Virus record (IMG/VR): IMGVR_UViG_3300022932_000004
Location: 1-51,536 of that record
Strand: one strand, 5' to 3'
Length of the DNA stretch: 51,536 nt
DNA from: a virus
Lineage: Duplodnaviria > Caudoviricetes
Shown here: positions 6,301 to 51,025 of the stretch, one piece after another
Layout: each line of letters begins with the position of its first letter
How positions within the stretch are numbered: position 1 is the stretch's first letter
The notes under the pieces: model-generated
The model's input: only the letters and a program-made list of their open reading frames with translations
Database searches by the model: none
What the model was told of the DNA's origin: nothing
Translations under genes and position numbers: made by a program

Positions 6301-7003
6301 CATTTACCGGCGTTACAATCGCAACGTCCGTCAATGAAGAAAGCATGGTTGCCGACCCCGAATTTAAGAACGCCGCTAAAGCTGATACGCGTACCTTTTT
6401 TAAGGTGCCGTTCGGTAAGCTGTGCGGAATTAAACTCTCAGAAGTGAGACCTTCGGTATCTAACTCAGGAACGGTAATCGTTTGAATGTCTGCCCCTAAT
6501 ACATTTTGATATATCCTTAATAAATCTCCATTACCGTCTTCGACAATATCATCCCCGGTAGTGTCTGTGGCTAAAACCTGAACAGTCATTCCTGCAATGT
6601 CCGCGGTAAACGGACCGCTTCCAGTGAACGAACAATTCCATGAGGCTTTCGAGTTGACAGAGGCGCTGATTGTTCCGCTGTTCACATAGGCTTTGCCTTC
6701 TAGAATAAAAGCCGGCATCAGCGTGTCTTTTACCGCAAATCGGATGATTACTTCTTCCCCTGTCAGGTAAGCAGATAAAACAGTCCCCGCGCTAGCTCCT
6801 GCGGCTTGAATTAATAGCCCTGCATTAACCGTCACATTCCATGAACGAACCGCAGGGATAACTTCCTTCCACCTTCCGGCATCAACAGGCGAAGCCCCCT
6901 TCATGTCGGCTTCAAAATTAAATTCACAGGAAGTTTCGCAGGAAATGTATTCTCCGTTGATCTGTACCCCTAAAAGGTTGCCGGAAAGTCTATTGTCGCT
7001 CAT
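3338..7003 (-). CDS. Tail fibre / receptor-binding protein with N-terminal tail-tube-like domain
   Basis: 1221 aa; second gene after the tape measure; KIEKGNKATDWTPAPED motif typical of siphovirus tail proteins; Gly/Ser/Thr-rich repeats; first ~135 aa resemble the tube protein at 13698-14165. Confidence 0.8.
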   Translation of the reverse strand: MSDNRLSGNLLGVQINGEYISCETSCEFNFEADMKGASPVDAGRWKEVIPAVRSWNVTVNAGLLIQAAGASAGTVLSAYLTGEEVIIRFAVKDTLMPAFILEGKAYVNSGTISASVNSKASWNCSFTGSGPFTADIAGMTVQVLATDTTGDDIVEDGNGDLLRIYQNVLGADIQTITVPELDTEGLTSESLIPHSLPNGTLKKVRVSALAAFLNSGSATMLSSLTDVAIVTPVNGQGLVFNGEKWVNRSIVTDLSNYYTKPESDSRYMPIGTDINPPGYHPTLWDEAYSWGNHAGRYPLYNGTGAYGTWAISITGNAATADLATRAYNADFADLAQRAYNADYAQDSDKWDGYQFADYLDQPVKVNSDVRHRSLSSPAYVSGFTGSGFKIEADGSATFDNLTVRKAFNVYELIVNKISGTNGALAVTDTIKMTSVVVDTNGDYYCNIDSAGFTIPVPFVIGDLLRCQMWSGRSVKYYVRRVIKVESEAFTLSQTAEGGSSIPEYGDTVARFGHISNTNRQGLLYLTSSDSNSPYLDVLDGINSASLAGKTKVRLGRLDGIVDPAFGALTGYGLYGQNVYLTGAINVTGGNAQTIAGSQAQVDALEVGGRNYYKKTTPLDSFQMGALSHDDVNGYPSAGGSPDGFYSTGISGGTGNVRLIDVITGNGEWTISGEMISNSAGWYPYFDICDQGGVYKPLDGPDVWTRFIHTVNVTNWSSDVYNFVDFTGMPYVYFNVRKLKIEKGNKATDWTPAPEDVTGYADSVLVSAQNYAAGQGYTAGRMLYTDPEFLLGYNGIAVYNNSGDSSVVLNRTALSGSPNSSGYVLYLQPSASALPNYGGFYFATQTRPNAVFKVRFVIAGNIGQTINFNSNAYGDQGTFQWNTSNVFTGGWQEFIGTIKCGSTGSFSSTAFFYIGGVLDNLYIASATVYDMTSTIDSLTYTDQAQQDAEAYAYAQAQGIATTYSLSQLKSLAYLDTVETAKLGTTVIQGGYLKNTLIDTVYLKASVINVGYIEGLAANFYQGTIGGIILSNNSIYSSNNNFSVTSAGVLTAKSGTIGGISINNNSIASSNGAFSVTNTGVLTATDANISGYINATSGIIGGFSISSGYMQGTNGDTIGGRFALNPSGGYIAFINDTTGSFSGIGSNVVSAAAGVKVLARFSNVESGSVNIGMLANAQNARTNIAIDIPNGNLRMGGSLGYNGFVTGYGGVVLTVRNGIIISP

Positions 7004-7014
7004 TTTTTAATTAC

Positions 7015-8937
7015 TTAATTCGGTGTTACAAACTTGCCGTAATGCTTCATTGAAATACTGATGTTGTCGTCACGAACCTCGACACAACTCATGTTAACTA
7101 CATTAGTTTCAGTATTCCAGCTTGCGCTTAAAGGTAGGAAATTTTTACCCGTCAGCGTCTGTATTTGGTATATCTCGCCATACGACCAATTAGAAGCATA
7201 GATTGACCCCTCAAAAACCAATGATGATTTATACCTGTTTCTTAAGACCGCATGACTATTTAAAGCGGTCAGTGTCCCTGTGTATTTAGAGTCTGTAAAA
7301 AACTTCTCAAACCCAGATTGGCTATATTCGGTCATGTAATTAGAGACGTAAAAACCATTATGCGAACTGCTGATGTTTAAAGAGTATTCCTCTTTTTTGG
7401 TGTTATTCCCTTGTGCATAAGTCGCCTCATAAACATCGTTGTTATTGTCTGTATTGATATATATGTCATCAAAAATCACTTTCCTGCCGGTAGGTATTTC
7501 AAAACTAACCAATAACGAAGGGTCTCTAGTTCTTCCAATTGGACTTGAATTTGGTAATGGAAGAATAATATTTTGCTTGGCGTTGAAGTCGATCTGAGCA
7601 ACGTCATTAAGTTTCAGTCCAGGAACAGTAATGCTAATTGAAGTGAAAGACGGTGTCCAAAATCCGTTCTCATTGAGGTAATAGTTAACATTATCCCCAC
7701 TGCAATACAACACTTGGAATTTAAAGCTAGTCGAAGCCCATACAATAAAGCCGTTTGCGTCTAATGTTGCGCCGTTAACAATGGCAAACTTAAATCCAAA
7801 ATTGATATAAGTGTAAAGCACGTCGCTGTCTATAGGTAGATTAGGATTGAACAATTGAAATCCGGTCGCGCCGTTTGGTGATGGGTTGGTAATTTGAACC
7901 GCACTTCCGGCTGAATCGCTTAAACTGCCGACAGATTCGATATAAGCCCCTGCGCTTGCATTGTATAGCCCCCAATATATCGGCACAGAGAAAGACACAA
8001 TGTCCATGTTGCCGTTAGGTAATATATTGTCTCGCTGGTCCTGCTCATAGGTGCTTACTACTGTCCTTAGGGCGGGCAACACCGTGATGATTGCATCTTC
8101 TTCAACAAAACGGTAGTTATAAGTGTTATCTCCGCCAATGGTGAACAGGTTCGGAGATAACGGTAATGTCGTCACGGAGAACCCTTCTAACGTTGCTGGT
8201 ATTTCTCTGTACACGCTAGAGCCGGTCACAATATCATTTATCCTTTCAATTTCCCATGCACCATTTGATTGATGCATTCGGCATTGTAGAGACCTTAACA
8301 TATTTTCTAAAATATAGAGACAAGATTTGTAGTTGCCTATATAATCCGTAAAACCTTCCCCTCTTGGCGCCCATTCTACAGAACCACTAAATATATCAAA
8401 CTCTCCTGGAAAAGCAGGATTTGTGACGGCGCAGGACCACCTGATCGGTAATGGCATCCCGAGGTTGTTCGTAGCAAACAGAATCTGTCTGAAATAGTTC
8501 AAAATACACCTTCCTCCTTGCAGATTGTTATGGGTGTAGTCTAATGTGTCAAGTAATTTCAACCCATCTGTTGCGGTGATATTTAACTCAAAAGGCGCGG
8601 ATTGAAAAGTTTGCTGAATCCCATCAGGGATAAGAAATCCTTTCCATTTCAATTCTGAATCTACGGAGAATTCGACCACAAAGTCGCGGTCATTTGCCTG
8701 TTGCAATTCTAAAATATCTATCGGGTTGCCTTCGGTTTGAAAAACATTAATTGAAGCTTTGCTGTTTATAATCGGCTCATAAGGGTCATCTCCGCAATCA
8801 TAGCTAATAACGCAAGCCTGACCCTCTACGCCACGCAAAGGAATAATTGCCCCGCTATAAGGAGCGACAGGCGAAATATCAACTCTGCACCTTTGATTAA
8901 AGTTATCCCGGTAGTCAACCCTGTATTTTACCGCCAT
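7015..8937 (-). CDS. Tail tip / baseplate hub protein
   Basis: 640 aa beta-rich ORF immediately downstream of the tape measure gene. Confidence 0.65.
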   Translation of the reverse strand: MAVKYRVDYRDNFNQRCRVDISPVAPYSGAIIPLRGVEGQACVISYDCGDDPYEPIINSKASINVFQTEGNPIDILELQQANDRDFVVEFSVDSELKWKGFLIPDGIQQTFQSAPFELNITATDGLKLLDTLDYTHNNLQGGRCILNYFRQILFATNNLGMPLPIRWSCAVTNPAFPGEFDIFSGSVEWAPRGEGFTDYIGNYKSCLYILENMLRSLQCRMHQSNGAWEIERINDIVTGSSVYREIPATLEGFSVTTLPLSPNLFTIGGDNTYNYRFVEEDAIITVLPALRTVVSTYEQDQRDNILPNGNMDIVSFSVPIYWGLYNASAGAYIESVGSLSDSAGSAVQITNPSPNGATGFQLFNPNLPIDSDVLYTYINFGFKFAIVNGATLDANGFIVWASTSFKFQVLYCSGDNVNYYLNENGFWTPSFTSISITVPGLKLNDVAQIDFNAKQNIILPLPNSSPIGRTRDPSLLVSFEIPTGRKVIFDDIYINTDNNNDVYEATYAQGNNTKKEEYSLNISSSHNGFYVSNYMTEYSQSGFEKFFTDSKYTGTLTALNSHAVLRNRYKSSLVFEGSIYASNWSYGEIYQIQTLTGKNFLPLSASWNTETNVVNMSCVEVRDDNISISMKHYGKFVTPN

Positions 8938-14517: not shown

Positions 14518-14952
14518 TTATTGCACAATATCGCGCTGAGACAGCCAAGACTCGAACTTAATCACCCTGCGTTCAATGGATTGCGTTGAGGTGTCGTCGT
14601 TCAATGACATCGACTCAAGAATGCGCGTATTCTTGTTTGAAAACCCGTTTACAGGAACGCCGTACCGAATGACATTCATCACTTTTTCTTCTACGTCATC
14701 TAGTTCTTTGGTGTGGCTATACCCTTTTTTACCTACATAGTAGATGCTTACATCAATCGTGGTTAACCATTCGAAATAATCTCTTTTAGCATTAACTGTT
14801 TCCTGCTTCGTTTGTCCATCGAGTAAAATGTACATTGCCGGAGCAACCTCATTCAGCGGAACACGAATATCCCAAACCGAAAGACCAGTCGCAGGTTTCA
14901 ATACCGTGATGTACGATTCCCTGATGTGTTTAGAAGGATTTTGTAAAGGCAT
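14518..14952 (-). CDS. Tail completion / terminator protein
   Basis: 144 aa, between the gp10-like gene and the tail tube; typical size and position. Confidence 0.7.
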   Translation of the reverse strand: MPLQNPSKHIRESYITVLKPATGLSVWDIRVPLNEVAPAMYILLDGQTKQETVNAKRDYFEWLTTIDVSIYYVGKKGYSHTKELDDVEEKVMNVIRYGVPVNGFSNKNTRILESMSLNDDTSTQSIERRVIKFESWLSQRDIVQ

Positions 14953-15365: not shown

Positions 15366-16814
15366 CTAAAGTGAAGCGCCTACTCCTGAGATTTTAGATT
15401 TGAAAGTCGTCAAATCCGTTACCGATTCCTGCCAAGTAGGGAAATATTTATTATTAAGGTTTTTGATAAACGTTTGCCCGTAATTGTAATTGATCATTTC
15501 AGCTCCGGCAGATAATGGAACATTTTTATTGTCAGACATTTTGTTCATTTCAAAGCCGAGGTTATTGTAATAACTCAGTGTACCTGTGCCTGGGTAATAT
15601 ACATCCACCATTTGCCCTTCCCAGTCCCCGACTGTATTCAAGTGCCCCGCTGTGTTATTAGACACTCTCGCGTCTGTGTAATTTGCTACAGCTGGGTACT
15701 TAGAAATAAAGTCCTGTATGTCCGGGGTAGCCTGTAATTCGAAAGCAGAATATTTAGACGAAGAGTAGGCAACGTTGTTGTAGATCAAAACAGAATCTTT
15801 CTTAGCCTTATTGCCAAAAGTCATCCCCCAAGCTCGGATTACATTCCCCTGAAAACGAGTCACTTTGTTATCGTGCAGAGAACCGTTACCCTGCATTGCA
15901 AATACCCCATTATGCGGACCATTTGGCGCATTCGGGCTAAGCGTAGTGCTGTAATTGTAGTTCACATGGTCAATATCATTATAGGCGATCTCGTAATTTT
16001 CAGCCGCACCAGTCCACACTACATTTCCCACATTTGGAGATTCCCTGACCGTATTATATGTAAATTTGAAATTCTTAATTAAACCGTTAATTTTACCGGT
16101 TTCAATATTTGGTCCGCTTCTCAATCCTACAATATTTCCGCAGGCAGTAAACTTACATTTGCTAATTGTGATGTTCATATTTGCCGTAGCGTCTGTACCG
16201 TCCCACGGCAAATCGTTTTCTGTTGAAATTACGATATTCTGTATGTTGGTAAAACTCGCATCGTGGATATGTAAGGTTTGTACCAAACCCCTAATATTCA
16301 TGCCTCTATAATACCCGTTGGTCATCGAGAAACCGTACAGTTCTAAATTCTTAGGGTCTTGTATATCGATGGAATGTGGCGCAGTTTGCGTGCTATTATT
16401 CACCGTAACGCCGGTCATATCTATTTTCACATTAACCGGGTAGCCGATACTGATGTAGTCGTAGTTACCTGGCTTTACTTTTAGGTTTACATTTTTCTGA
16501 TTATCTAAAGTTAGATTACCTGAGCCCGTACCTACGTTTACCCATACGGTAGCCGGTGGCGTCACCACTGGAGGCACCACAACTACAGGCGGTTTAACCG
16601 GGATGGTGGCATGTTTATACACCTTCGCATAATCCACGTCGCTCAGCGCAACTGTGGCAATTTTTCCATTTGAGAAAGTCACTTTTCCGCTGGCATCCTG
16701 TGCTACAGTGTAGGTGATTCTTTTTTTAGTCGCGGGGTCAACCACATAAGGTAGTGTTTGCGCGCTGACCGTGAAAACGGTAAATAGTGCGCCGAATAAT
16801 AGTAATTTTTTCAT
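15366..16814 (-). CDS. Right-handed beta-helix protein (pectate-lyase-like fold) with signal peptide
   Basis: Asn-rich repeating beta strands; N-terminus MKKLLLFGALFTVFTVSAQ resembles a Sec signal peptide; Pro/Val linker. Start revised from 16844. Confidence 0.65.
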   Translation of the reverse strand: MKKLLLFGALFTVFTVSAQTLPYVVDPATKKRITYTVAQDASGKVTFSNGKIATVALSDVDYAKVYKHATIPVKPPVVVVPPVVTPPATVWVNVGTGSGNLTLDNQKNVNLKVKPGNYDYISIGYPVNVKIDMTGVTVNNSTQTAPHSIDIQDPKNLELYGFSMTNGYYRGMNIRGLVQTLHIHDASFTNIQNIVISTENDLPWDGTDATANMNITISKCKFTACGNIVGLRSGPNIETGKINGLIKNFKFTYNTVRESPNVGNVVWTGAAENYEIAYNDIDHVNYNYSTTLSPNAPNGPHNGVFAMQGNGSLHDNKVTRFQGNVIRAWGMTFGNKAKKDSVLIYNNVAYSSSKYSAFELQATPDIQDFISKYPAVANYTDARVSNNTAGHLNTVGDWEGQMVDVYYPGTGTLSYYNNLGFEMNKMSDNKNVPLSAGAEMINYNYGQTFIKNLNNKYFPTWQESVTDLTTFKSKISGVGASL

Positions 16815-23238: not shown

Positions 23239-24066
23239 ATGGCAACAGAAAAAATTTGTGGGATATATATTATTCACTCCCCAACAGATAGAATATATAT
23301 TGGACAGTCGAGAGATATTATGAGAAGATTTAAGTCTTATTTATGCGGAAGCTCAAAAACCAAAGGACAACCCAAGTTGCATAATTCATTTGTAAAGCAT
23401 GGGGTTGAAAATCACTTTTTTACCGTATTAGAGGAATGTGAATTGCTTCAATTGAATATCAGGGAACGTTTTTGGCAAGACGAGCATAACGCTATTGGCG
23501 ACATGGGGTTAAATTGCAGGCTAACAGAAACAGATTTAGTTCCGGCTATAACAAGTGAAGAAACGAGAAAAAAGCTTTCAGAAGCAGCAGCGAAAAGAAT
23601 GTCCATATTGCTTAACGATCCTGAATACAAAAAGACAATGCGAATTGCTTATGACAAAAGAATAGGGGTTAAATTAAGACCAAAAACAGACGAAGAAAAA
23701 GAGTCGATTAGAAAAACAGTTACCGCGTATGGCGGTTGGAAAGGCGAAAAGAACCCCTTCTATGGCAAAGACAGGAGTGGAGAAAAGAACACCATGTACG
23801 GTAAAATTCAAAGCGAAGAAGCTCGAGAAAAAATAAGGCAAAAAGCTTTAGGAAGAAAACATACTGATAGCGCAAAATCCTTAATGTCTGCTAAAAGATC
23901 GCTAGGTAATAATATACATGCGAAGCTGGTCTTTAACGAGGAAACTGGGATTTTTTATACCTCAGGAAAGGAGGCCTGGATGGCTATAGGTTATGGAGCA
24001 TACCCTACAATGAAGTCCAAATTAAACGGAGATAATCCGAATAAAACATCATATAGGTATGTATAA
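23239..24066 (+). CDS. GIY-YIG homing endonuclease with NUMOD3-like repeats
   Basis: GIYIIHSPTDRIYIGQS, RERFWQ, GLNC; GEKNPFYGK, GEKNTMYGK and GRKHTD repeats. Confidence 0.9.
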   Translation: MATEKICGIYIIHSPTDRIYIGQSRDIMRRFKSYLCGSSKTKGQPKLHNSFVKHGVENHFFTVLEECELLQLNIRERFWQDEHNAIGDMGLNCRLTETDLVPAITSEETRKKLSEAAAKRMSILLNDPEYKKTMRIAYDKRIGVKLRPKTDEEKESIRKTVTAYGGWKGEKNPFYGKDRSGEKNTMYGKIQSEEAREKIRQKALGRKHTDSAKSLMSAKRSLGNNIHAKLVFNEETGIFYTSGKEAWMAIGYGAYPTMKSKLNGDNPNKTSYRYV

Positions 24067-32448: not shown

Positions 32449-32630
32449 ACTCAAATATAAGCATTTTACTTTTTAAAACGTTCGCTAAAGAAAGTGCCTT
32501 TTATTGAGTCATGGCAATCTGTGTCCCAACTAAACCAAGCTGAAACCCAGCATCCTTCTATGCGTTCGATTTGATTTGCATACTGCCTAACCAAGTGCGG
32601 TTTTGTTTTTTCGTGTCTAGGATTCATAGC

Positions 32631-32885: not shown

Positions 32886-33003
32886 GTTGAAGTTTTTTGT
32901 TTAAGAAAAGACAGAGAACTTGCTATCCCTAGCGTTGATATAAAGAACGATGTTAAATTTATACCTTATCAAATACCAAATCAATCAACTGTCCTCTGTT
33001 TTT

Positions 33004-33153
33004 TTAGTTTGCGGAAATGGTTCTGTGTAAGAAGTAAATAGACCAAACTGTTTCTAATCCTTCGTATCCCGACACTAACGTCATCATTTCGAAGTCAACT
33101 ATACCGTCTACTGCTTTCTTAAAGTTCAAATTAAAAAGCTCAATTCTTACCAT
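33004..33153 (-). CDS. Small hypothetical protein (49 aa, absent from ORF track)
   Basis: MVRIELFNLNFKKAVDGIVDFEMMTLVSGYEGLETVWSIYFLHRTISAN with A-rich leader. Confidence 0.4.
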   Translation of the reverse strand: MVRIELFNLNFKKAVDGIVDFEMMTLVSGYEGLETVWSIYFLHRTISAN

Positions 33154-33183
33154 TTTCTAATTTTAAATTGGGGGTGTTTTGCT

Positions 33184-33271
33184 GCTAAATTTTAATTTCA
33201 AAATACACACCGCTGTCCGTTTTTTTTTTATTAAGACACTCAAACAGCATTGTGTCAGCTACGAATTTAGC
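33184..33271 (-). ncRNA. Candidate H-type pseudoknot element
   Basis: Minus strand: GACAC/GTGTC stem whose loop GCTGTTT can pair with GGACAGC after an A10 linker, all enclosed by GCTAAATT/AATTTAGC. Confidence 0.45.
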
Positions 33272-33370
33272 ACGCTAGACTTTTAGAATCTTACTCGTCA
33301 TCGCTCATGATTAAGGCTCATGTATATTTCTACTTTAAAAAATTCAAACACCCCTCTCCGGGTTTGCATG

Positions 33371-33567
33371 TGGGTATCTACGGAGTCGAACCGTAGTGAG
33401 TTATTACAATGTTAGTCAGCACCTTCAAAAGGGATATGCCTTAATATTTTCATTGTTATTACTGGACTGCCTCAACTTACCTGTTATTTACCTGACTTGT
33501 CTTACAGTTGAACTCCTTCGCAATCCACTCTATCGGCCCGTTAGGGCTTCCATGCCCAAAAATACCC
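33371..33567 (-). ncRNA. tRNA-like RNA (197 nt) with two long internal hairpins in place of anticodon and variable arms
   Basis: Acceptor GGGTATT/GATACCC plus A; D-like arm GGGC-ATGGAA-GCCC; canonical T arm TACGG-TTCGACT-CCGTA; no canonical anticodon arm. Confidence 0.7.
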
Positions 33568-33847
33568 ATATTTCTTATTTAAATGAACAATAGAAAGGGG
33601 GCTTATAAAAATGTTCGTCTCCTACTTATCAACAAAGCCCCCGTATCTATATTAACGCTCTCGTACCACAAAGCCCGAATCGGTAGCGAACCAATGTCGG
33701 GGCGTTGTAGTTCTAAATTATGTTTCTGTTTTTTCAATACAATGATACGAAATATGCCGATAGTAAAATGCAACAATGTAGTTACAATTAATATATAAAT
33801 CCCGTTCCAAATCTTTTAATTGATTTCCTATTCACCTGCTTATAATA

Positions 33848-48759: not shown

Positions 48760-48813
48760 TGCGATGCCTTTTTTAAACTCAAATATACTAAGATTTATGT
48801 ATATTTATATTGT

Positions 48814-48916: not shown

Positions 48917-49453
48917 ATGATAGGAATTTATAGAATAACGTCTCCGTCAAACAAGGTTTACATAGGGCAAAGCAGCAATATAGAGACAAGATTTAAAACA
49001 TATAAATACAACGCATGCAAAGGTCAGCCTAGGCTATTCAATTCTTTTAAGAAATACGGATTTGAAACCCACAAACTGGAAGTCATAGAGCGGTGTGCGA
49101 TTGACAAATTAAATATTAGAGAAAGATATTGGCAAGATTTCCATGACTCTACTAATAAAGGATTAAACTGCATGTCTGTAAAAACAGAATTGATAAATGG
49201 GAGTCATTGCAATACGACTAAATTAAAAATAAGCCAAACCAAGATGGGCGTTCCTAGCAAATTAAAAGGCAGAAAAATGCTGAAAAAAGCATATAACCCA
49301 AGGATAAACGGACGCCTTGTTCTTAATACTGAAAATGGGATATATTATTCTAGTGTAGTGCAAGCGGCGCATGCGTTTTGCTTAAACAGGACTACTTTAG
49401 ACGCTATGCTTAGAGGCAGAAGAAGGAACAAAACACAAATGAAACTAGCATAG
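48917..49453 (+). CDS. GIY-YIG homing endonuclease
   Basis: GIYRITSPSNKVYIGQS, RERYWQD, GLNC; paralog of 23239-24066. Confidence 0.9.
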   Translation: MIGIYRITSPSNKVYIGQSSNIETRFKTYKYNACKGQPRLFNSFKKYGFETHKLEVIERCAIDKLNIRERYWQDFHDSTNKGLNCMSVKTELINGSHCNTTKLKISQTKMGVPSKLKGRKMLKKAYNPRINGRLVLNTENGIYYSSVVQAAHAFCLNRTTLDAMLRGRRRNKTQMKLA

Positions 49454-49527
49454 TCTATTTTGCAACATATTCGATACATCTTAGCAACTTTAAAATATTG
49501 CGCTTACATTCGGTCAAAAACAAATTC

Positions 49528-50232
49528 ATGATAAAACATTATTCTTTTGACTTATGGCTGACACTCATAAAGTCAAACAGCGTCTTCAAGGAAGAGCGCG
49601 CCAAATATTTTCAAAAAAAGTTCAACCCATTTAGCAGGACGTTAGCCGAAGTAAAAGACATTATTCGAAATGTTGACTTGTCTTGCAATTACACAAACGA
49701 AATCGTAGGCAAGAACATCGATGCACTGGAAATGTATTGCATGGTGCTTTATAATTTAGGGGTTGATCTATCGGATATTTCGACAACTAAGATCAACGAA
49801 ATTTACGCTGAGATTGAGCAAATATTTTTTAATTACACCCCTCAAATGTACGACGAGGATACGGTTTCGACCCTATGGTGTTTACAGGAACATGGTAAAA
49901 CCCTTTCTATTTTGTCCAATACCGGATTTATCAAAGGGCATACCCTTAAAACTTTCATTCAGAAAAGCGACTTGTCCCAAATTGACTTTAGGTTTATGCT
50001 GTTTTCAGATGAACACAGGATGTCTAAGCCTAACCCTTTTTTCTTTAGCAAAATCAATAAATTAACAAATGGCAGGTTAGACAAACACGAAATCTTGCAC
50101 GTAGGGGACAATCCGAATGCAGACGGCGTAGGCGCTCAATTTGCCGGGATAGGTCATGTAATCATCAACAATATAAATCACTCACCATTTACTATTAAAG
50201 ACGTGTTAAATGAAGAACTATTCATTACATAA
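49528..50232 (+). CDS. HAD-superfamily hydrolase
   Basis: FDLWLTLI (motif I), ILSNT (II), SKP (III), HVGDN..ADG.GA (IV); start revised to ATG at 49528. Confidence 0.85.
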   Translation: MIKHYSFDLWLTLIKSNSVFKEERAKYFQKKFNPFSRTLAEVKDIIRNVDLSCNYTNEIVGKNIDALEMYCMVLYNLGVDLSDISTTKINEIYAEIEQIFFNYTPQMYDEDTVSTLWCLQEHGKTLSILSNTGFIKGHTLKTFIQKSDLSQIDFRFMLFSDEHRMSKPNPFFFSKINKLTNGRLDKHEILHVGDNPNADGVGAQFAGIGHVIINNINHSPFTIKDVLNEELFIT

Positions 50233-51025
50233 AATATACGCCGAAGACGAAATCCCGTTTTCGGCAATCGACTATTCGAAGTTTAAATTTGGCGACAAAG
50301 ATATTGCCAGGGATTTTGGTTATGCCTTAGCGGATGGGTTTATTAAAAGAAACGGATTGCGTCACTGTAAATACGAGCAGATAGTAGTGATCTCTTCTCC
50401 GTATTGTTTTATTCCTACCGCAACCTTTGCAATGAAAGATTACTTCGTTCAAAGACTCAATGAATTTCTAGTTGAAAGAAACCATAGGGTAGTTGAAGAG
50501 GCAAAGATTCATCGTACAATCACCTATAAAGAAGACTACGGCGCATTATCAGCAGAGGATAGAATGAAGTTAATCGGGAACGATGGATTTCATATTGATG
50601 CTAATTTTGTGGATAATAAGACATTGTTGTTCTTGGATGACATCATCATCACAGGAAGTCATGAGCGGGTAGTCAAAAGAATGCTGGAAGAGTACAAAAT
50701 ATCTGCTGATTGCAAATTCTTATACTTTGCTGAGCTTGCAAATAAAGACATTCATCCGAAGATCGAAAACGATTTGAATTTTGCTTTTGTGAAAGACCTG
50801 TACACCTTAGACAAGGTCATCAAGAATGAATCTTTCCTTTTCAATACACGCGTTGTTAAGTTCATGCTGAATGCTCCAGCTAGCGAGTTTAGTACATTCA
50901 TTAGATTTCAGAAAGAAGCGTTCTTACAGACGTTTATTCACCTCGCAATCGGGAACTCGTACCACACGATACCGGATTACCATTTCAATTTTACTACGCT
51001 TAAGAATTACCTCAAAACTTTTTAA
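50210..51025 (+). CDS. Type I phosphoribosyltransferase-like protein
   Basis: PRPP-binding loop LLFLDDIIITGSHE; overlaps the HAD gene, suggesting an operon. Confidence 0.8.
   Translation: MKNYSLHKIYAEDEIPFSAIDYSKFKFGDKDIARDFGYALADGFIKRNGLRHCKYEQIVVISSPYCFIPTATFAMKDYFVQRLNEFLVERNHRVVEEAKIHRTITYKEDYGALSAEDRMKLIGNDGFHIDANFVDNKTLLFLDDIIITGSHERVVKRMLEEYKISADCKFLYFAELANKDIHPKIENDLNFAFVKDLYTLDKVIKNESFLFNTRVVKFMLNAPASEFSTFIRFQKEAFLQTFIHLAIGNSYHTIPDYHFNFTTLKNYLKTF

What the first reader, a model, noticed from the sequence alone, without database searches (positions are those of the whole stretch)
33371..33567. 197-nt tRNA-mimic with intact acceptor, D-like and T arms but two long hairpins instead of an anticodon arm
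Seen (minus): acceptor GGGTATT/GATACCC-A, D-like GGGC-ATGGAA-GCCC, canonical T arm TACGG-TTCGACT-CCGTA. The ~150-nt interior forms hairpin A (TGGATTGC/GCAGTCCA with inner TCAACT/AGTTGA) and hairpin B (ACAATG/CATTGT with inner CCTT-ttg-AAGG). It lacks the G3-U70 alanine determinant and the length of tmRNA, has no encoded CCA, and the insert is too short for a group I intron. Inference: a tRNA-shaped scaffold processed by RNase P that displays cargo hairpins, for example a decoy for anticodon nucleases or other tRNA-sensing defences, or a Y-RNA-like molecule.
Basis: partly seen in the sequence, partly recalled or inferred. Interest (0 to 1): 0.8.

Follow-up and report, generated by a model that had tools for sequence, protein, structure and literature searches.

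The report
Phage tRNA-like gene lacking an anticodon arm
A bacteriophage genome carries one gene shaped like the upper half of a transfer RNA, with about 150 loosely folded bases where the decoding arm should be, so it probably cannot read codons; many other uncultivated phages carry genes built to the same plan.

Summary
The tRNA "top half" (7-bp acceptor, 4-bp D-like arm with GG, canonical T arm GG-UUCGACU-CC, A73) exceeds chance: 1 of 1000 simulated windows met the same descriptor. ARAGORN in intron mode called 6 tRNAs in 1000 simulated windows. The element lies sense-oriented in a ~960-nt ORF-poor gap of a complete 51.5-kb phage, probably of Bacteroidota.

The two "cargo hairpins" are not supported: interior z=+0.74, hairpin A p=0.04, hairpin B p=0.15. 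ARAGORN default and Rfam call no tRNA, tmRNA or Y RNA. No deletion restores a clean tRNA. No homologue turned up in INPHARED, IMG/VR, JGI metagenomes or complete relatives, so covariation cannot be tested.

While searching I found a large IMG/VR family with the same design: an invariant tRNA-Leu-like top half (AGUCAGG...CCUGACU-A) around a hypervariable 20-130-nt interior. It has 169 distinct sequences, of which ARAGORN default.

Best reading (0.4): a non-decoding, tRNA-derived RNA matured by tRNA-processing enzymes, whose top half is the working part. Main rival (0.28): a rearranged tRNA relic.

The parts
33371..33567 (-). whole tRNA-like element (197 nt)
   Evidence: Sequence read. It is the only ARAGORN -i call in the window, and the only locus in the window that passes the top-half descriptor.
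33561..33567 (-). acceptor 5' strand GGGUAUU
   Evidence: Pairs 7/7 (one G.U) with 33372-33378. The base before it is U.
33544..33557 (-). D-like arm GGGC-AUGGAA-GCCC
   Evidence: A 4-bp G-C stem with a 6-nt loop carrying GG. A similar D arm, CGG-UAAAUGGAAG-CCG, occurs in a tRNA of the complete relative G409. The GCCC strand can alternatively pair with the next GGGC (seen in the sequence).
   Evidence: The helices exist. Stability is only marginal: -14.9 kcal/mol, z=-1.9, and 4.2% of shuffles fold as well.
   Evidence: The helices exist. Stability is not beyond chance: -8.0 kcal/mol, z=-1.0, and 14.8% of shuffles fold as well.
33379..33395 (-). T arm UACGG-UUCGACU-CCGUA
   Evidence: Canonical G53-C61 pair and UUCGA loop. 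The window's only other canonical T arm lies inside a coding region at 14561.
33371..33378 (-). acceptor 3' strand GAUACCC plus discriminator A; no encoded CCA
   Evidence: The 3' flank reads CAU. The tRNA-like genes of L050 and L060 likewise lack CCA and continue with C.
33413..33497 (-). nested AGUCAG...CUGACUA pair inside the interior (unexplained)
   Evidence: This is the best hit in the window of model R1, built from the AGUCAGG family: 12.4 bits, E=0.76, with only the acceptor halves aligned. It is the only such motif pair in the window, and simulations give 0.074 pairs per window. An HMM of the family's 5' part matches only the first 8 nt (E=17).
33557..33564 (-). TATTTTTG, a match to the Bacteroidota -7 promoter motif TAnnTTTG, inside the 5' end of the element
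   Evidence: The same motif sits directly before start codons at 48787, 38360, 32459, 28817, 2568 and 1522. Overall it is not enriched: 33 copies on the minus strand and 37 on the plus strand.
33337..33366 (-). weak hairpin CAAACCC-GGAGA-GGGGUGUUUG followed by AAUUUUUU, a possible terminator 5 nt after the discriminator
   Evidence: Sequence. The fold is -8.3 kcal/mol with z=-0.96. The consensus terminator scan did not call it.
33597..33642 (-). upstream hairpin GGGGGCUU...AAGCCCCC followed by UUUCU
   Evidence: 8-bp G+C-rich stem with a 30-nt loop; the 133-nt region has z=-1.65.
32886..33847 (-). ORF-poor gap that holds the element, between small early ORFs and the 84-aa ORF/terS/terL
   Evidence: ORF lists. 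PHROGs finds nothing for the 49-aa and 57-aa ORFs. The 65-aa plus-strand ORF overlapping the element has 0 homologues among 1.84 billion representative proteins.

Best explanation
The element is a tRNA-derived gene that no longer decodes. It keeps the upper half of a tRNA: the acceptor stem, the T arm, and a D-like arm whose GG can dock on the T loop. The anticodon arm and variable region are replaced by about 148 nt of AU-rich, weakly structured sequence.

Inferred mechanism. The RNA is transcribed with, or just after, the early genes. RNase P cuts it at 33567. It is trimmed after A at 33371 (RNase Z-type, since no CCA is encoded) and receives CCA from the host enzyme. It then persists as a stable tRNA-like RNA that cannot read a codon.

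Inferred function. The working part is the top half, meaning binding to, or use by, a factor that recognises the tRNA minihelix and elbow. The interior is largely unconstrained filler. This is the same design as the large AGUCAGG family of uncultivated phages, although by sequence the element is not a member of that family.

Shown: the anatomy, its improbability by chance, the lack of a usable anticodon arm, and the recurrence of the design. Inferred: expression, processing, and any function.
For: The top half is present and rare by chance: 1 of 1000 simulated windows. ARAGORN -i made 6 calls in 1000 simulated windows against 1 call in the real window, exactly here. The element lies in an ORF-poor gap on the strand of the flanking genes; only 7.9% of 197-nt windows are free of ORFs >=80 aa. 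The overlapping 65-aa ORF has no homologue.

It has no anticodon arm. ARAGORN default and Rfam tRNA find nothing. None of 1106 in-silico deletions gave a tRNA above ARAGORN threshold 115, and only 4 passed 110. The intron-mode model (Val-AAC) has an A.A mismatch in the anticodon stem, an 8-nt variable loop and a 3-nt 8/9 linker.

The interior is not structured.

The same design recurs. That gave 188 elements, 169 of them distinct, 54-191 nt long. The 5' 18 nt and the 3' 26 nt are conserved and the interior shares no motif. ARAGORN default calls only 32 of 169, with scattered anticodons. Acceptor variants of the family change on both sides, for example GGUCAGG/CCUGACC and UGUAAGG/CCUUACA.

The D arm resembles that of a tRNA in a complete relative.

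Relatives carry irregular tRNA-like genes without CCA in comparable accessory positions: L050 and L060.
Against: The element is a singleton. It has no homologue by blastn in INPHARED, nor in 85 TerL/TerS-related loci. It is absent from 11 loci sharing the primase at 58-76% identity and from 5 complete relatives. The IMG/VR and JGI metagenome pattern scans found no homologue, and nothing turned up in 151 or 401 genomes of the presumed host phylum. There is therefore no covariation and no evidence of selection on this particular RNA.

There are no expression data: the only listed holder is one DNA run.

The top half is irregular (UUU linker, 6-nt D loop). The thermodynamic optimum disrupts the T arm.

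A TAnnTTTG promoter-like motif lies at RNA positions 4-11. If it is used, transcripts would start after the 5' acceptor strand.

The downstream 'terminator' is weak.

The family that supports the design has a different top-half sequence, and its model does not align to the outer arms of this element.
Confidence: 0.4

Rival explanations
1. Non-functional relic. A phage tRNA gene, or a small tRNA array, was rearranged or interrupted. The two halves of one tRNA type now flank about 148 nt of leftover sequence. The RNA may still be made but does nothing and is on its way to loss.
For: The element sits in a hypervariable accessory region: the small ORFs between primase and terL are not shared with any of 11 relatives, and 5 complete relatives lack the element. 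The interior is as unstructured as shuffled sequence. The interior contains a pair of AGUCAG/CUGACUA acceptor-like halves that could be a decayed second tRNA-like gene, and a T-arm-like hairpin AUUGG-UUCGCUA-CCGAU lies 110 nt upstream at 33679-33695. Some AGUCAGG-family members hold internal T-arm-like motifs (sequences), as rearranged arrays would. The phage has two free-standing GIY-YIG endonuclease genes.
Against: All 16 stem pairs of the acceptor, D and T arms are intact, as are the invariant T-loop and GG positions. This is unexpected after long neutral decay, though a recent event would explain it. Phage genomes are compact. The AGUCAGG family shows that such shells can be kept across many unrelated phages.
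Confidence: 0.28
2. Chance resemblance inside a regulatory leader. The T-arm-like hairpin, its 7-nt complement and the G+C hairpin are fortuitous. The region is really a promoter/leader for the late genes, with TATTTTTG acting as the -7 box.
For: The TAnnTTTG motif lies inside the 5' end, and the same motif sits directly before six start codons. A T arm plus a 7/7 acceptor partner alone occurs in 75 of 1000 simulated windows. Many windows were screened by the first stage, so events at the 1-in-1000 level are expected somewhere. The MFE z-score is only -1.39.
Against: The full descriptor occurred in 1 of 1000 simulations and ARAGORN -i gave 6 calls in 1000, before counting the location in an ORF-free stretch (7.9%) and the matching strand. 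TAnnTTTG is not enriched overall (33 and 37 copies). terS has its own TATATTTG at 32459.
Confidence: 0.1
3. The tRNA shell is a scaffold, and the interior is the active payload: displayed hairpins acting as a decoy for anticodon nucleases or other tRNA-sensing defences, or an antisense or aptamer RNA.
For: Hairpin A is marginally stable (p=0.04). An anticodon-loop-like CUUUUGA/UUUUGAA loop caps hairpin B. There is a 14-nt exact complement to the mRNA of the 492-aa ORF at 15564-15577 (E=0.022). AAUAAC occurs three times in the RNA (sequence). In the AGUCAGG family some sub-groups keep their interior, for example ...AUAGAAUAUCAUAGGUCGUAAGCCCUAA... with compensatory D-stem changes (sequences).
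Against: The interior overall is no more stable than shuffles (z=+0.74), and hairpin B is at p=0.15. The anticodon-like stems have at most 4 of 5 pairs, except one with a non-anticodon loop. The antisense match is at chance level for this search space. Family interiors are close to random.
Confidence: 0.08
4. An intron-bearing tRNA gene. A 123-nt intervening sequence is removed to give a decoding tRNA; ARAGORN's model is Val, anticodon AAC.
For: ARAGORN -i calls tRNA-Val(AAC) with a 123-nt intron at the default threshold. GUU is the commonest Val codon in the phage, 294 of 770.
Against: The spliced product would have an A.A mismatch in the anticodon stem, an 8-nt variable loop and A34. No deletion gives a better tRNA. 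There is no group I or other ribozyme match at E<=10, and 123 nt is well below the size of known bacterial tRNA group I introns (recalled). The host appears bacterial, and bacteria have no protein tRNA-splicing endonuclease (established knowledge). A 2014 review states that all phage group I introns then known lie in protein genes, not in phage tRNA genes (PMC3984707, passage seen).
Confidence: 0.08
5. A miniature tmRNA-like molecule: a tRNA-like domain plus a short internal reading frame, for example AUG AAA ... GAC UAA of 13 codons.
For: The top half carries an internal open frame with an A-rich leader (sequence).
Against: Pair 3-70 is G-C, so the alanine determinant is missing. ARAGORN tmRNA mode finds nothing, even at a lowered threshold. 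There is no Rfam tmRNA match. The frame does not end in the hydrophobic Ala-rich tail typical of tags (recalled). No SmpB appeared among the scanned ORFs.
Confidence: 0.02

Closest known systems
AGUCAGG-type tRNA-Leu-like shells of uncultivated phages
   Same: Intact acceptor, D-loop and T arm. A73. No encoded CCA. The place of the anticodon arm and variable region is taken by sequence of arbitrary content and length (20-130 nt) that is barely more structured than shuffles. ARAGORN default calls only 32 of 169, and Rfam tRNA reached its gathering score for few of the members in the 7 loci checked. Found in phage accessory regions and tRNA arrays.
   Different: The top-half sequence differs: GGGUAUU/GAUACCC with a short D arm, against AGUCAGG/CCUGACU with a tRNA-Leu-type D arm. 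The family model does not align to the window element's outer arms. The window element is longer (197 nt), single-copy, and not inside a tRNA array.
Irregular bacterial and phage tRNAs (8/4 and 9/3 'allo-tRNAs', tRNA-Sec-like; PMC5389517, abstract and passages seen)
   Same: Non-canonical tRNA-shaped genes found in metagenomes and phages that standard detectors miss. The authors consider possible roles as regulatory non-coding RNAs. An 8/4 reading of this element is possible.
   Different: Those keep an anticodon arm and were shown to decode. This element has none, and it carries a 148-nt insert.
tRNA-Other of Bacillus cereus, a pseudo-tRNA that does not act in translation (PMC3399842, abstract seen in the listing)
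   Same: A tRNA-derived gene with a non-translational role.
   Different: It is a chromosomal gene of normal tRNA size. Its structure was not compared here.
tmRNA tRNA-like domain, and bacterial Y RNA (YrlA; PMC4201824, listing and abstract seen)
   Same: Acceptor/T-arm mimicry joined to a non-tRNA body.
   Different: tmRNA needs G3-U70, a tag frame and SmpB. YrlA has its free ends in the Ro-binding stem rather than in the acceptor (recalled) and sits beside rsr. None of this is met here.
Bacterial tRNA genes with group I introns (review PMC3984707, passage seen)
   Same: A tRNA gene interrupted in the anticodon region.
   Different: No group I core is detected. The insert is only 123-148 nt. 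The exons do not rebuild a normal anticodon arm.

Membership tests
tRNA (Rfam RF00005 / ARAGORN) | 7-bp acceptor stem, T arm with GTTCRANNC, D arm with GG | tested here: met
   Irregularities: a 3-nt linker and a 6-nt D loop.
tRNA (Rfam RF00005 / ARAGORN) | anticodon arm (5-bp stem, 7-nt loop with U33) at the canonical place, overall length 70-95 nt | tested here: not met
   ARAGORN default finds 0 genes. Rfam finds no tRNA at gathering score or at E<=10. The best contiguous candidates pair 4 of 5.
intron-containing tRNA, group I type | group I catalytic core in the insert, and exons that rebuild a normal anticodon arm | tested here: not met
   There is no Intron_gpI or other ribozyme hit at E<=10. 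Of 1106 deletion variants, 4 passed ARAGORN threshold 110 and 0 passed 115. The Val-AAC model has a mismatch and an 8-nt variable loop.
intron-containing tRNA, archaeal bulge-helix-bulge type | BHB motif at the exon-intron junctions, and an archaeal host | tested here: inconclusive
   No formal BHB scan was run. Host signals point to Bacteroidota: Shine-Dalgarno-like motifs before 7 of 34 genes, TAnnTTTG directly before start codons, and TerL relatives mostly on Bacteroidota MAG contigs.
tmRNA | G3-U70 pair, tag reading frame, detection by ARAGORN or Rfam | tested here: not met
   Pair 3-70 is G-C. ARAGORN -m finds 0, also at -ps80. Rfam finds none.
Y RNA / YrlA | match to the Rfam model, and a neighbouring Ro60 (TROVE) gene | tested here: not met
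   There is no Rfam hit. No TROVE domain appeared among 29 ORFs scanned against Pfam; not every small ORF was scanned.
   Model R1 gives no hit on the outer arms. Its best window hit (12.4 bits, E=0.76) is a nested AGUCAG...CUGACUA pair inside the interior. The HMM of the 5' part matches only 8 nt.
   window element; family.
8/4 allo-tRNA-like | 8-bp acceptor plus 4-bp T stem, a long variable arm, and an anticodon arm | tested here: inconclusive
   An 8/4 pairing is possible from the sequence (U8 with A at the base of the T stem) and gives a normal 2-nt linker. No anticodon arm is present.

The most novel reading that the evidence does not exclude
Phages widely encode 'hollow' tRNAs: shells that keep the acceptor stem, elbow and discriminator but carry free-running sequence instead of the decoding arm. 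The window element would be an extreme 197-nt, independently derived example. The AGUCAGG family is the main body of the class, with at least 169 distinct versions, up to 6 per genome, and tRNA-Leu identity features retained. Such RNAs would be matured, and possibly aminoacylated, like tRNAs but never decode. They could serve as sponges or substrates for host factors that act on the tRNA top half. Examples are defence toxins that modify or sense the acceptor end, RNase P/CCA enzyme/synthetase titration, or non-ribosomal use of the charged amino acid. Alternatively they could be selfish tRNA-shaped mobile units that nest inside one another, as the AGUCAG...CUGACUA pair inside this element hints.
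Probability: 0.3. Interest if true: 0.75.

Novelty: new variant of a known kind. Interest (0 to 1): 0.5.

Why it matters
Standard annotation (ARAGORN default, Rfam) sees nothing here, and it sees little of a family with at least 169 distinct members built the same way. A recurrent class of phage RNA genes may therefore be going unannotated. If these shells are expressed and processed, they offer a testable case of tRNA mimicry that works through the minihelix and elbow rather than the anticodon. That bears on how phages deal with tRNA-directed host defences and with the host's tRNA-processing and charging enzymes. If they turn out to be relics or selfish units, they document how phage tRNA arrays are scrambled. 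For this single element the evidence is limited to one sequence, so on its own it is a moderate finding.

Tried and rejected
Detectors. ARAGORN default, tmRNA mode and lowered thresholds found nothing, or only low-threshold noise. Rfam at gathering score and at E<=10 gave only chance-level miRNA/snoRNA hits.

Sequence homology. blastn against INPHARED gave no match. nhmmer and blastn against 85 TerL/TerS-related IMG/VR loci found nothing, and nhmmer plus ARAGORN found nothing in 11 primase-related loci. BLAST found no homologue in 5 complete relatives; the single 22-nt hit had E=0.04. In 151 genomes of the presumed host phylum there was one 25-nt hit inside a coding region, judged chance.

Pattern scans. 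The 25-mer of the 3' end found 0 in IMG/VR. The D-arm...T-loop pattern gave one chance hit in a tRNA array in IMG/VR. In JGI metagenomes it gave 4 hits, all ordinary tRNAs preceded by a fortuitous 14-mer. The 3' end with free T-stem bases hit two ordinary phage tRNA-Tyr genes. The 3' 22-mer with up to 2 mismatches found 0 in 401 genomes of the phylum of a Flavobacterium MAG. This argues against an attP copy of a host tRNA end in those genomes, and no integrase was seen among the scanned ORFs.

Expression. No RNA holder was listed: the one run listed is a DNA run that may be the source sample.

Coding rivals. The 65-aa plus-strand ORF has 0 homologues. The small gap ORFs have no PHROG.

Interior repeats and antisense. 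Only chance-level matches turned up.

Terminator. The hairpin after the element is weak, and the consensus scan called none.

Family membership. R1 and the HMMs do not place the outer arms in the AGUCAGG family.

Neighbours of the family. No protein cluster is shared by more than 16 of 136 loci.

Literature. Six searches found no description of a phage tRNA shell with a variable interior. Supplementary tables of PMC10690425 (10,006 candidate viral RNAs) could not be opened and may list such elements.

Full report
WHAT AND WHERE. The window is a complete 51,536-bp virus record with direct terminal repeats. It encodes portal, HK97-type capsid, terS/terL, a primase-helicase, a YqaJ recombinase, a C5 methylase and two GIY-YIG endonucleases. 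The finding lies on the minus strand at 33371-33567. It sits inside a ~960-nt stretch (32886-33847) that holds only weak small ORFs, between a run of small early genes and the 84-aa ORF/terS/terL block.

HOST. Three things point to a Bacteroidota host. Shine-Dalgarno-like motifs precede only 7 of 34 genes. The Bacteroidota -7 promoter motif TAnnTTTG sits directly before the start codons at 48787, 38360, 32459, 28817, 2568 and 1522. TerL relatives in genome collections are mostly on contigs binned with Flavobacterium, Crocinitomicaceae and Bacteroidales. This is an inference, not a demonstration.

OBSERVATION. There is no G3-U70 pair and no encoded CCA. An 8/4 reading of the acceptor/T branch would restore a 2-nt linker.

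IS THE TOP HALF CHANCE? I wrote a descriptor requiring four features:
- a T arm with 5 pairs, G53-C61 and a TTC[GA]ANN loop;
- a 7/7 acceptor partner within 400 nt;
- a 4-bp D stem after 2-3 nt;
- GG in the D loop.

I ran it on 1000 first-order Markov simulations of the window. There were 275 T arms, 75 with an acceptor partner, and 1 with the D arm as well. ARAGORN with introns allowed made 6 calls in the same 1000 simulations. In about 630 kb of related phage loci it made 2 calls, and in the real window 1, exactly this element. Only 7.9% of 197-nt windows of this genome are free of ORFs of 80 aa or more. The plus-strand 65-aa ORF that overlaps the element has no homologue among 1.84 billion representative proteins. 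I conclude the top half is very probably tRNA-derived. Because the first stage screened very many windows, I keep 10% for chance.

THE INTERIOR IS NOT A STRUCTURED CARGO.
- Whole RNA: z=-1.39.
- The 148-nt interior: z=+0.74.
- Hairpin A: z=-1.9 (4.2% of shuffles fold as well).
- Hairpin B: z=-1.0 (14.8% of shuffles fold as well).

The free-energy optimum even prefers a pairing that opens the T arm: -49.4 against -46.1 kcal/mol for the tRNA-like fold. No contiguous anticodon-type stem-loop with U33 has more than 4 of 5 pairs. Matches of the interior elsewhere in the genome are at chance level.

IS IT A SPLIT tRNA? ARAGORN's intron model is Val(AAC) with a 123-nt insert. Its anticodon stem has an A.A mismatch and a G.U, its variable loop has 8 nt, and A34 is unusual in bacteria. 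I tested 1106 deletion variants: 178 passed ARAGORN's default threshold, 48 passed 105, 4 passed 110 and none passed 115. Rfam finds no group I intron or small ribozyme at E<=10. A 2014 review states that all phage group I introns then known lie in protein genes despite many phage tRNA genes (PMC3984707, passage). Splicing is therefore unlikely (0.08).

tmRNA AND Y RNA. Both are rejected on their defining features.

HOMOLOGUES. None was found.
- blastn of the 801-nt region against 50,697 phage records: no match.
- 4 TerS-related and 80 TerL-related IMG/VR loci: nothing by nhmmer or blastn.
- 11 loci whose primase-helicase is 58-76% identical: no element. Apart from primase, two TerL matches and one small-ORF match in a single locus, none of the genes between primase and terL is shared. 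This is a hypervariable accessory region.
- Five complete relatives of 39-50 kb: they lack the element. Only one of them, G409, has tRNAs. Its first tRNA has a D arm CGG-UAAAUGGAAG-CCG resembling the element's.
- Pattern scans of IMG/VR and of JGI metagenome contigs: only ordinary tRNAs or chance hits.
- The 3' 22-mer: absent, at up to 2 mismatches, from 401 genomes of the presumed host phylum.
- Sequencing runs: the only listed holder is a DNA run that may be the source sample.

Covariation and expression therefore cannot be assessed for this RNA.

A RECURRENT DESIGN. My descriptor flagged a 97-nt tRNA-like gene in L060, a phage whose TerL is 58% identical. It has good acceptor, D and T arms, no anticodon arm, and no Rfam tRNA hit at E<=1.

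Its 3' end led to 17 IMG/VR loci. From these I extracted 188 elements; in 8 further pattern matches no 5' acceptor was found. Of the 188, 169 are distinct, and they range from 54 to 191 nt.

All share AGUCAGG/CCUGACU plus A73 and the T arm; this part is forced by the pattern. A tRNA-Leu-type D region UGGCGGAAU(U)GG is also conserved at 80-90% per column, and this part is not forced. The sequence between has no common motif. ARAGORN default of 169, with scattered and often impossible anticodons. A further 62 are called only in intron mode, and 75 are not called at all. Rfam tRNA reaches its gathering score for only a few.

The interiors are only slightly more stable than shuffles: -1.0 kcal/mol on average, 62% more stable, and a closing helix of >=4 bp in 43% against 31%. 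Relatives with altered acceptors change both strands, for example GGUCAGG/CCUGACC and UGUAAGG/CCUUACA. No neighbouring protein family is shared by more than 16 of 136 loci. Cultured phages show only partial matches to annotated tRNA-Leu genes, and 0 of 393 matching records cover 80% of a member. The literature searches found no description.

The window element is not a sequence member of this family, but it has the same architecture.

AN UNEXPLAINED DETAIL. The best hit of the family model anywhere in the window lies inside the element's interior: AGUCAG at RNA 71-76 and CUGACUA at 149-155 (12.4 bits, E=0.76). Such motif pairs occur 0.074 times per simulated window, and this is the only one in the real window. 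Falling inside a given 197-nt strand segment is then nominally a 1-in-10,000 event. This estimate is post hoc, and the family's D-loop and T-arm profiles do not match there. It could be a decayed nested shell, a relic of an array, or coincidence.

INTERPRETATION. The anatomy says tRNA-derived and non-decoding. The choice between 'kept for its top half' (0.40) and 'recent relic' (0.28) rests on indirect arguments.
- For function: all stems and invariant loop bases are intact, the gene is oriented with its neighbours in a compact genome, and the same hollow design is kept across many unrelated phages.
- For a relic: the element is a singleton, it lies in a hypervariable region, its interior is unstructured, and there are possible tRNA fragments inside and upstream (33679-33695).

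The TATTTTTG motif at RNA positions 4-11 is a real caveat. If it is a working promoter, the 5' acceptor strand is not in the RNA.

The processing steps (RNase P at 33567, RNase Z-type cut after A33371, CCA addition) follow from what those enzymes are known to recognise. They are inferred, not shown.

LIMITS. There is one sequence, no RNA data, and exact-pattern searches only in the large collections. Supplementary tables of the viral structured-RNA survey (PMC10690425) could not be read.

Noticed in passing
L060:146-242; L120-L255 (e.g. L126:6172-6293, 6460-6558, 7608-7715; L148 six copies): A large family of phage tRNA-Leu-like 'shells'. They have an invariant AGUCAGG/CCUGACU acceptor, A73, T arm ACAGG-UUCRANU-CCUGU and a conserved D loop, around a hypervariable interior. 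There are 169 distinct sequences of 54-191 nt. Only 32 are called tRNA by ARAGORN default. They are often multi-copy and sit in tRNA arrays. I found no description in the papers searched.
   Followed up: partly
L060:249-350; L182 (168 nt), L150 (156 nt): A second set of long tRNA-like genes with acceptor UGUAAGG/CCUUACA-G or UGUCAGG/CCUGACA-G. The L060 copy has a cloverleaf with a ~33-nt variable arm and an odd anticodon loop, CAGUCUA.
   Followed up: no
L050:3539-3611: A tRNA gene in a TerL relative with a perfect top half (Rfam 48.6 bits) but an anticodon stem with only 3 of 5 pairs; ARAGORN calls it 'Phe AAA'. It also scores with the shell-family model (27.4 bits).
   Followed up: partly
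window 48787, 38360, 32459, 28817, 2568, 1522 (minus strand): TAnnTTTG motifs lie only a few bases before start codons, and Shine-Dalgarno sequences are nearly absent. This is Bacteroidota-style expression with very short leaders.
   Followed up: partly
window 33679-33695 (-): A T-arm-like hairpin AUUGG-UUCGCUA-CCGAU, extended by CCGA/UCGG, lies 110 nt upstream of the element. It may be a terminator of the upstream gene or a tRNA fragment.
   Followed up: no
window 23239-24066 (+) and 48917-49453 (+): Two free-standing GIY-YIG homing-endonuclease genes (one with NUMOD3) lie on the strand opposite to most genes.
   Followed up: no
window 49498-51025 (+): A HAD-type phosphatase gene is followed by a ComF-like phosphoribosyltransferase gene (PRTase_3, E=3.6e-86) at the right end of the genome.
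   Followed up: no
L006/L002 (one IMG/VR contig of 21,880 bp): Mosaicism at the packaging module: TerL is 99% identical to the window's, but the adjacent TerS is only 58% identical.
   Followed up: no
L257:1417-1732 (record G409): A complete relative carries a 3-gene tRNA cluster between two strong terminators. Two of the three score low with Rfam (29.8 and 24.6 bits) because of odd D arms and long variable regions.
   Followed up: partly
window 33269-33306 (-) and 33585-33636 (-): Weak C/D-box-like matches (ceN65 E=3.9, sR42 E=6.4) flank the element. They are at chance level, and the host appears bacterial.
   Followed up: no
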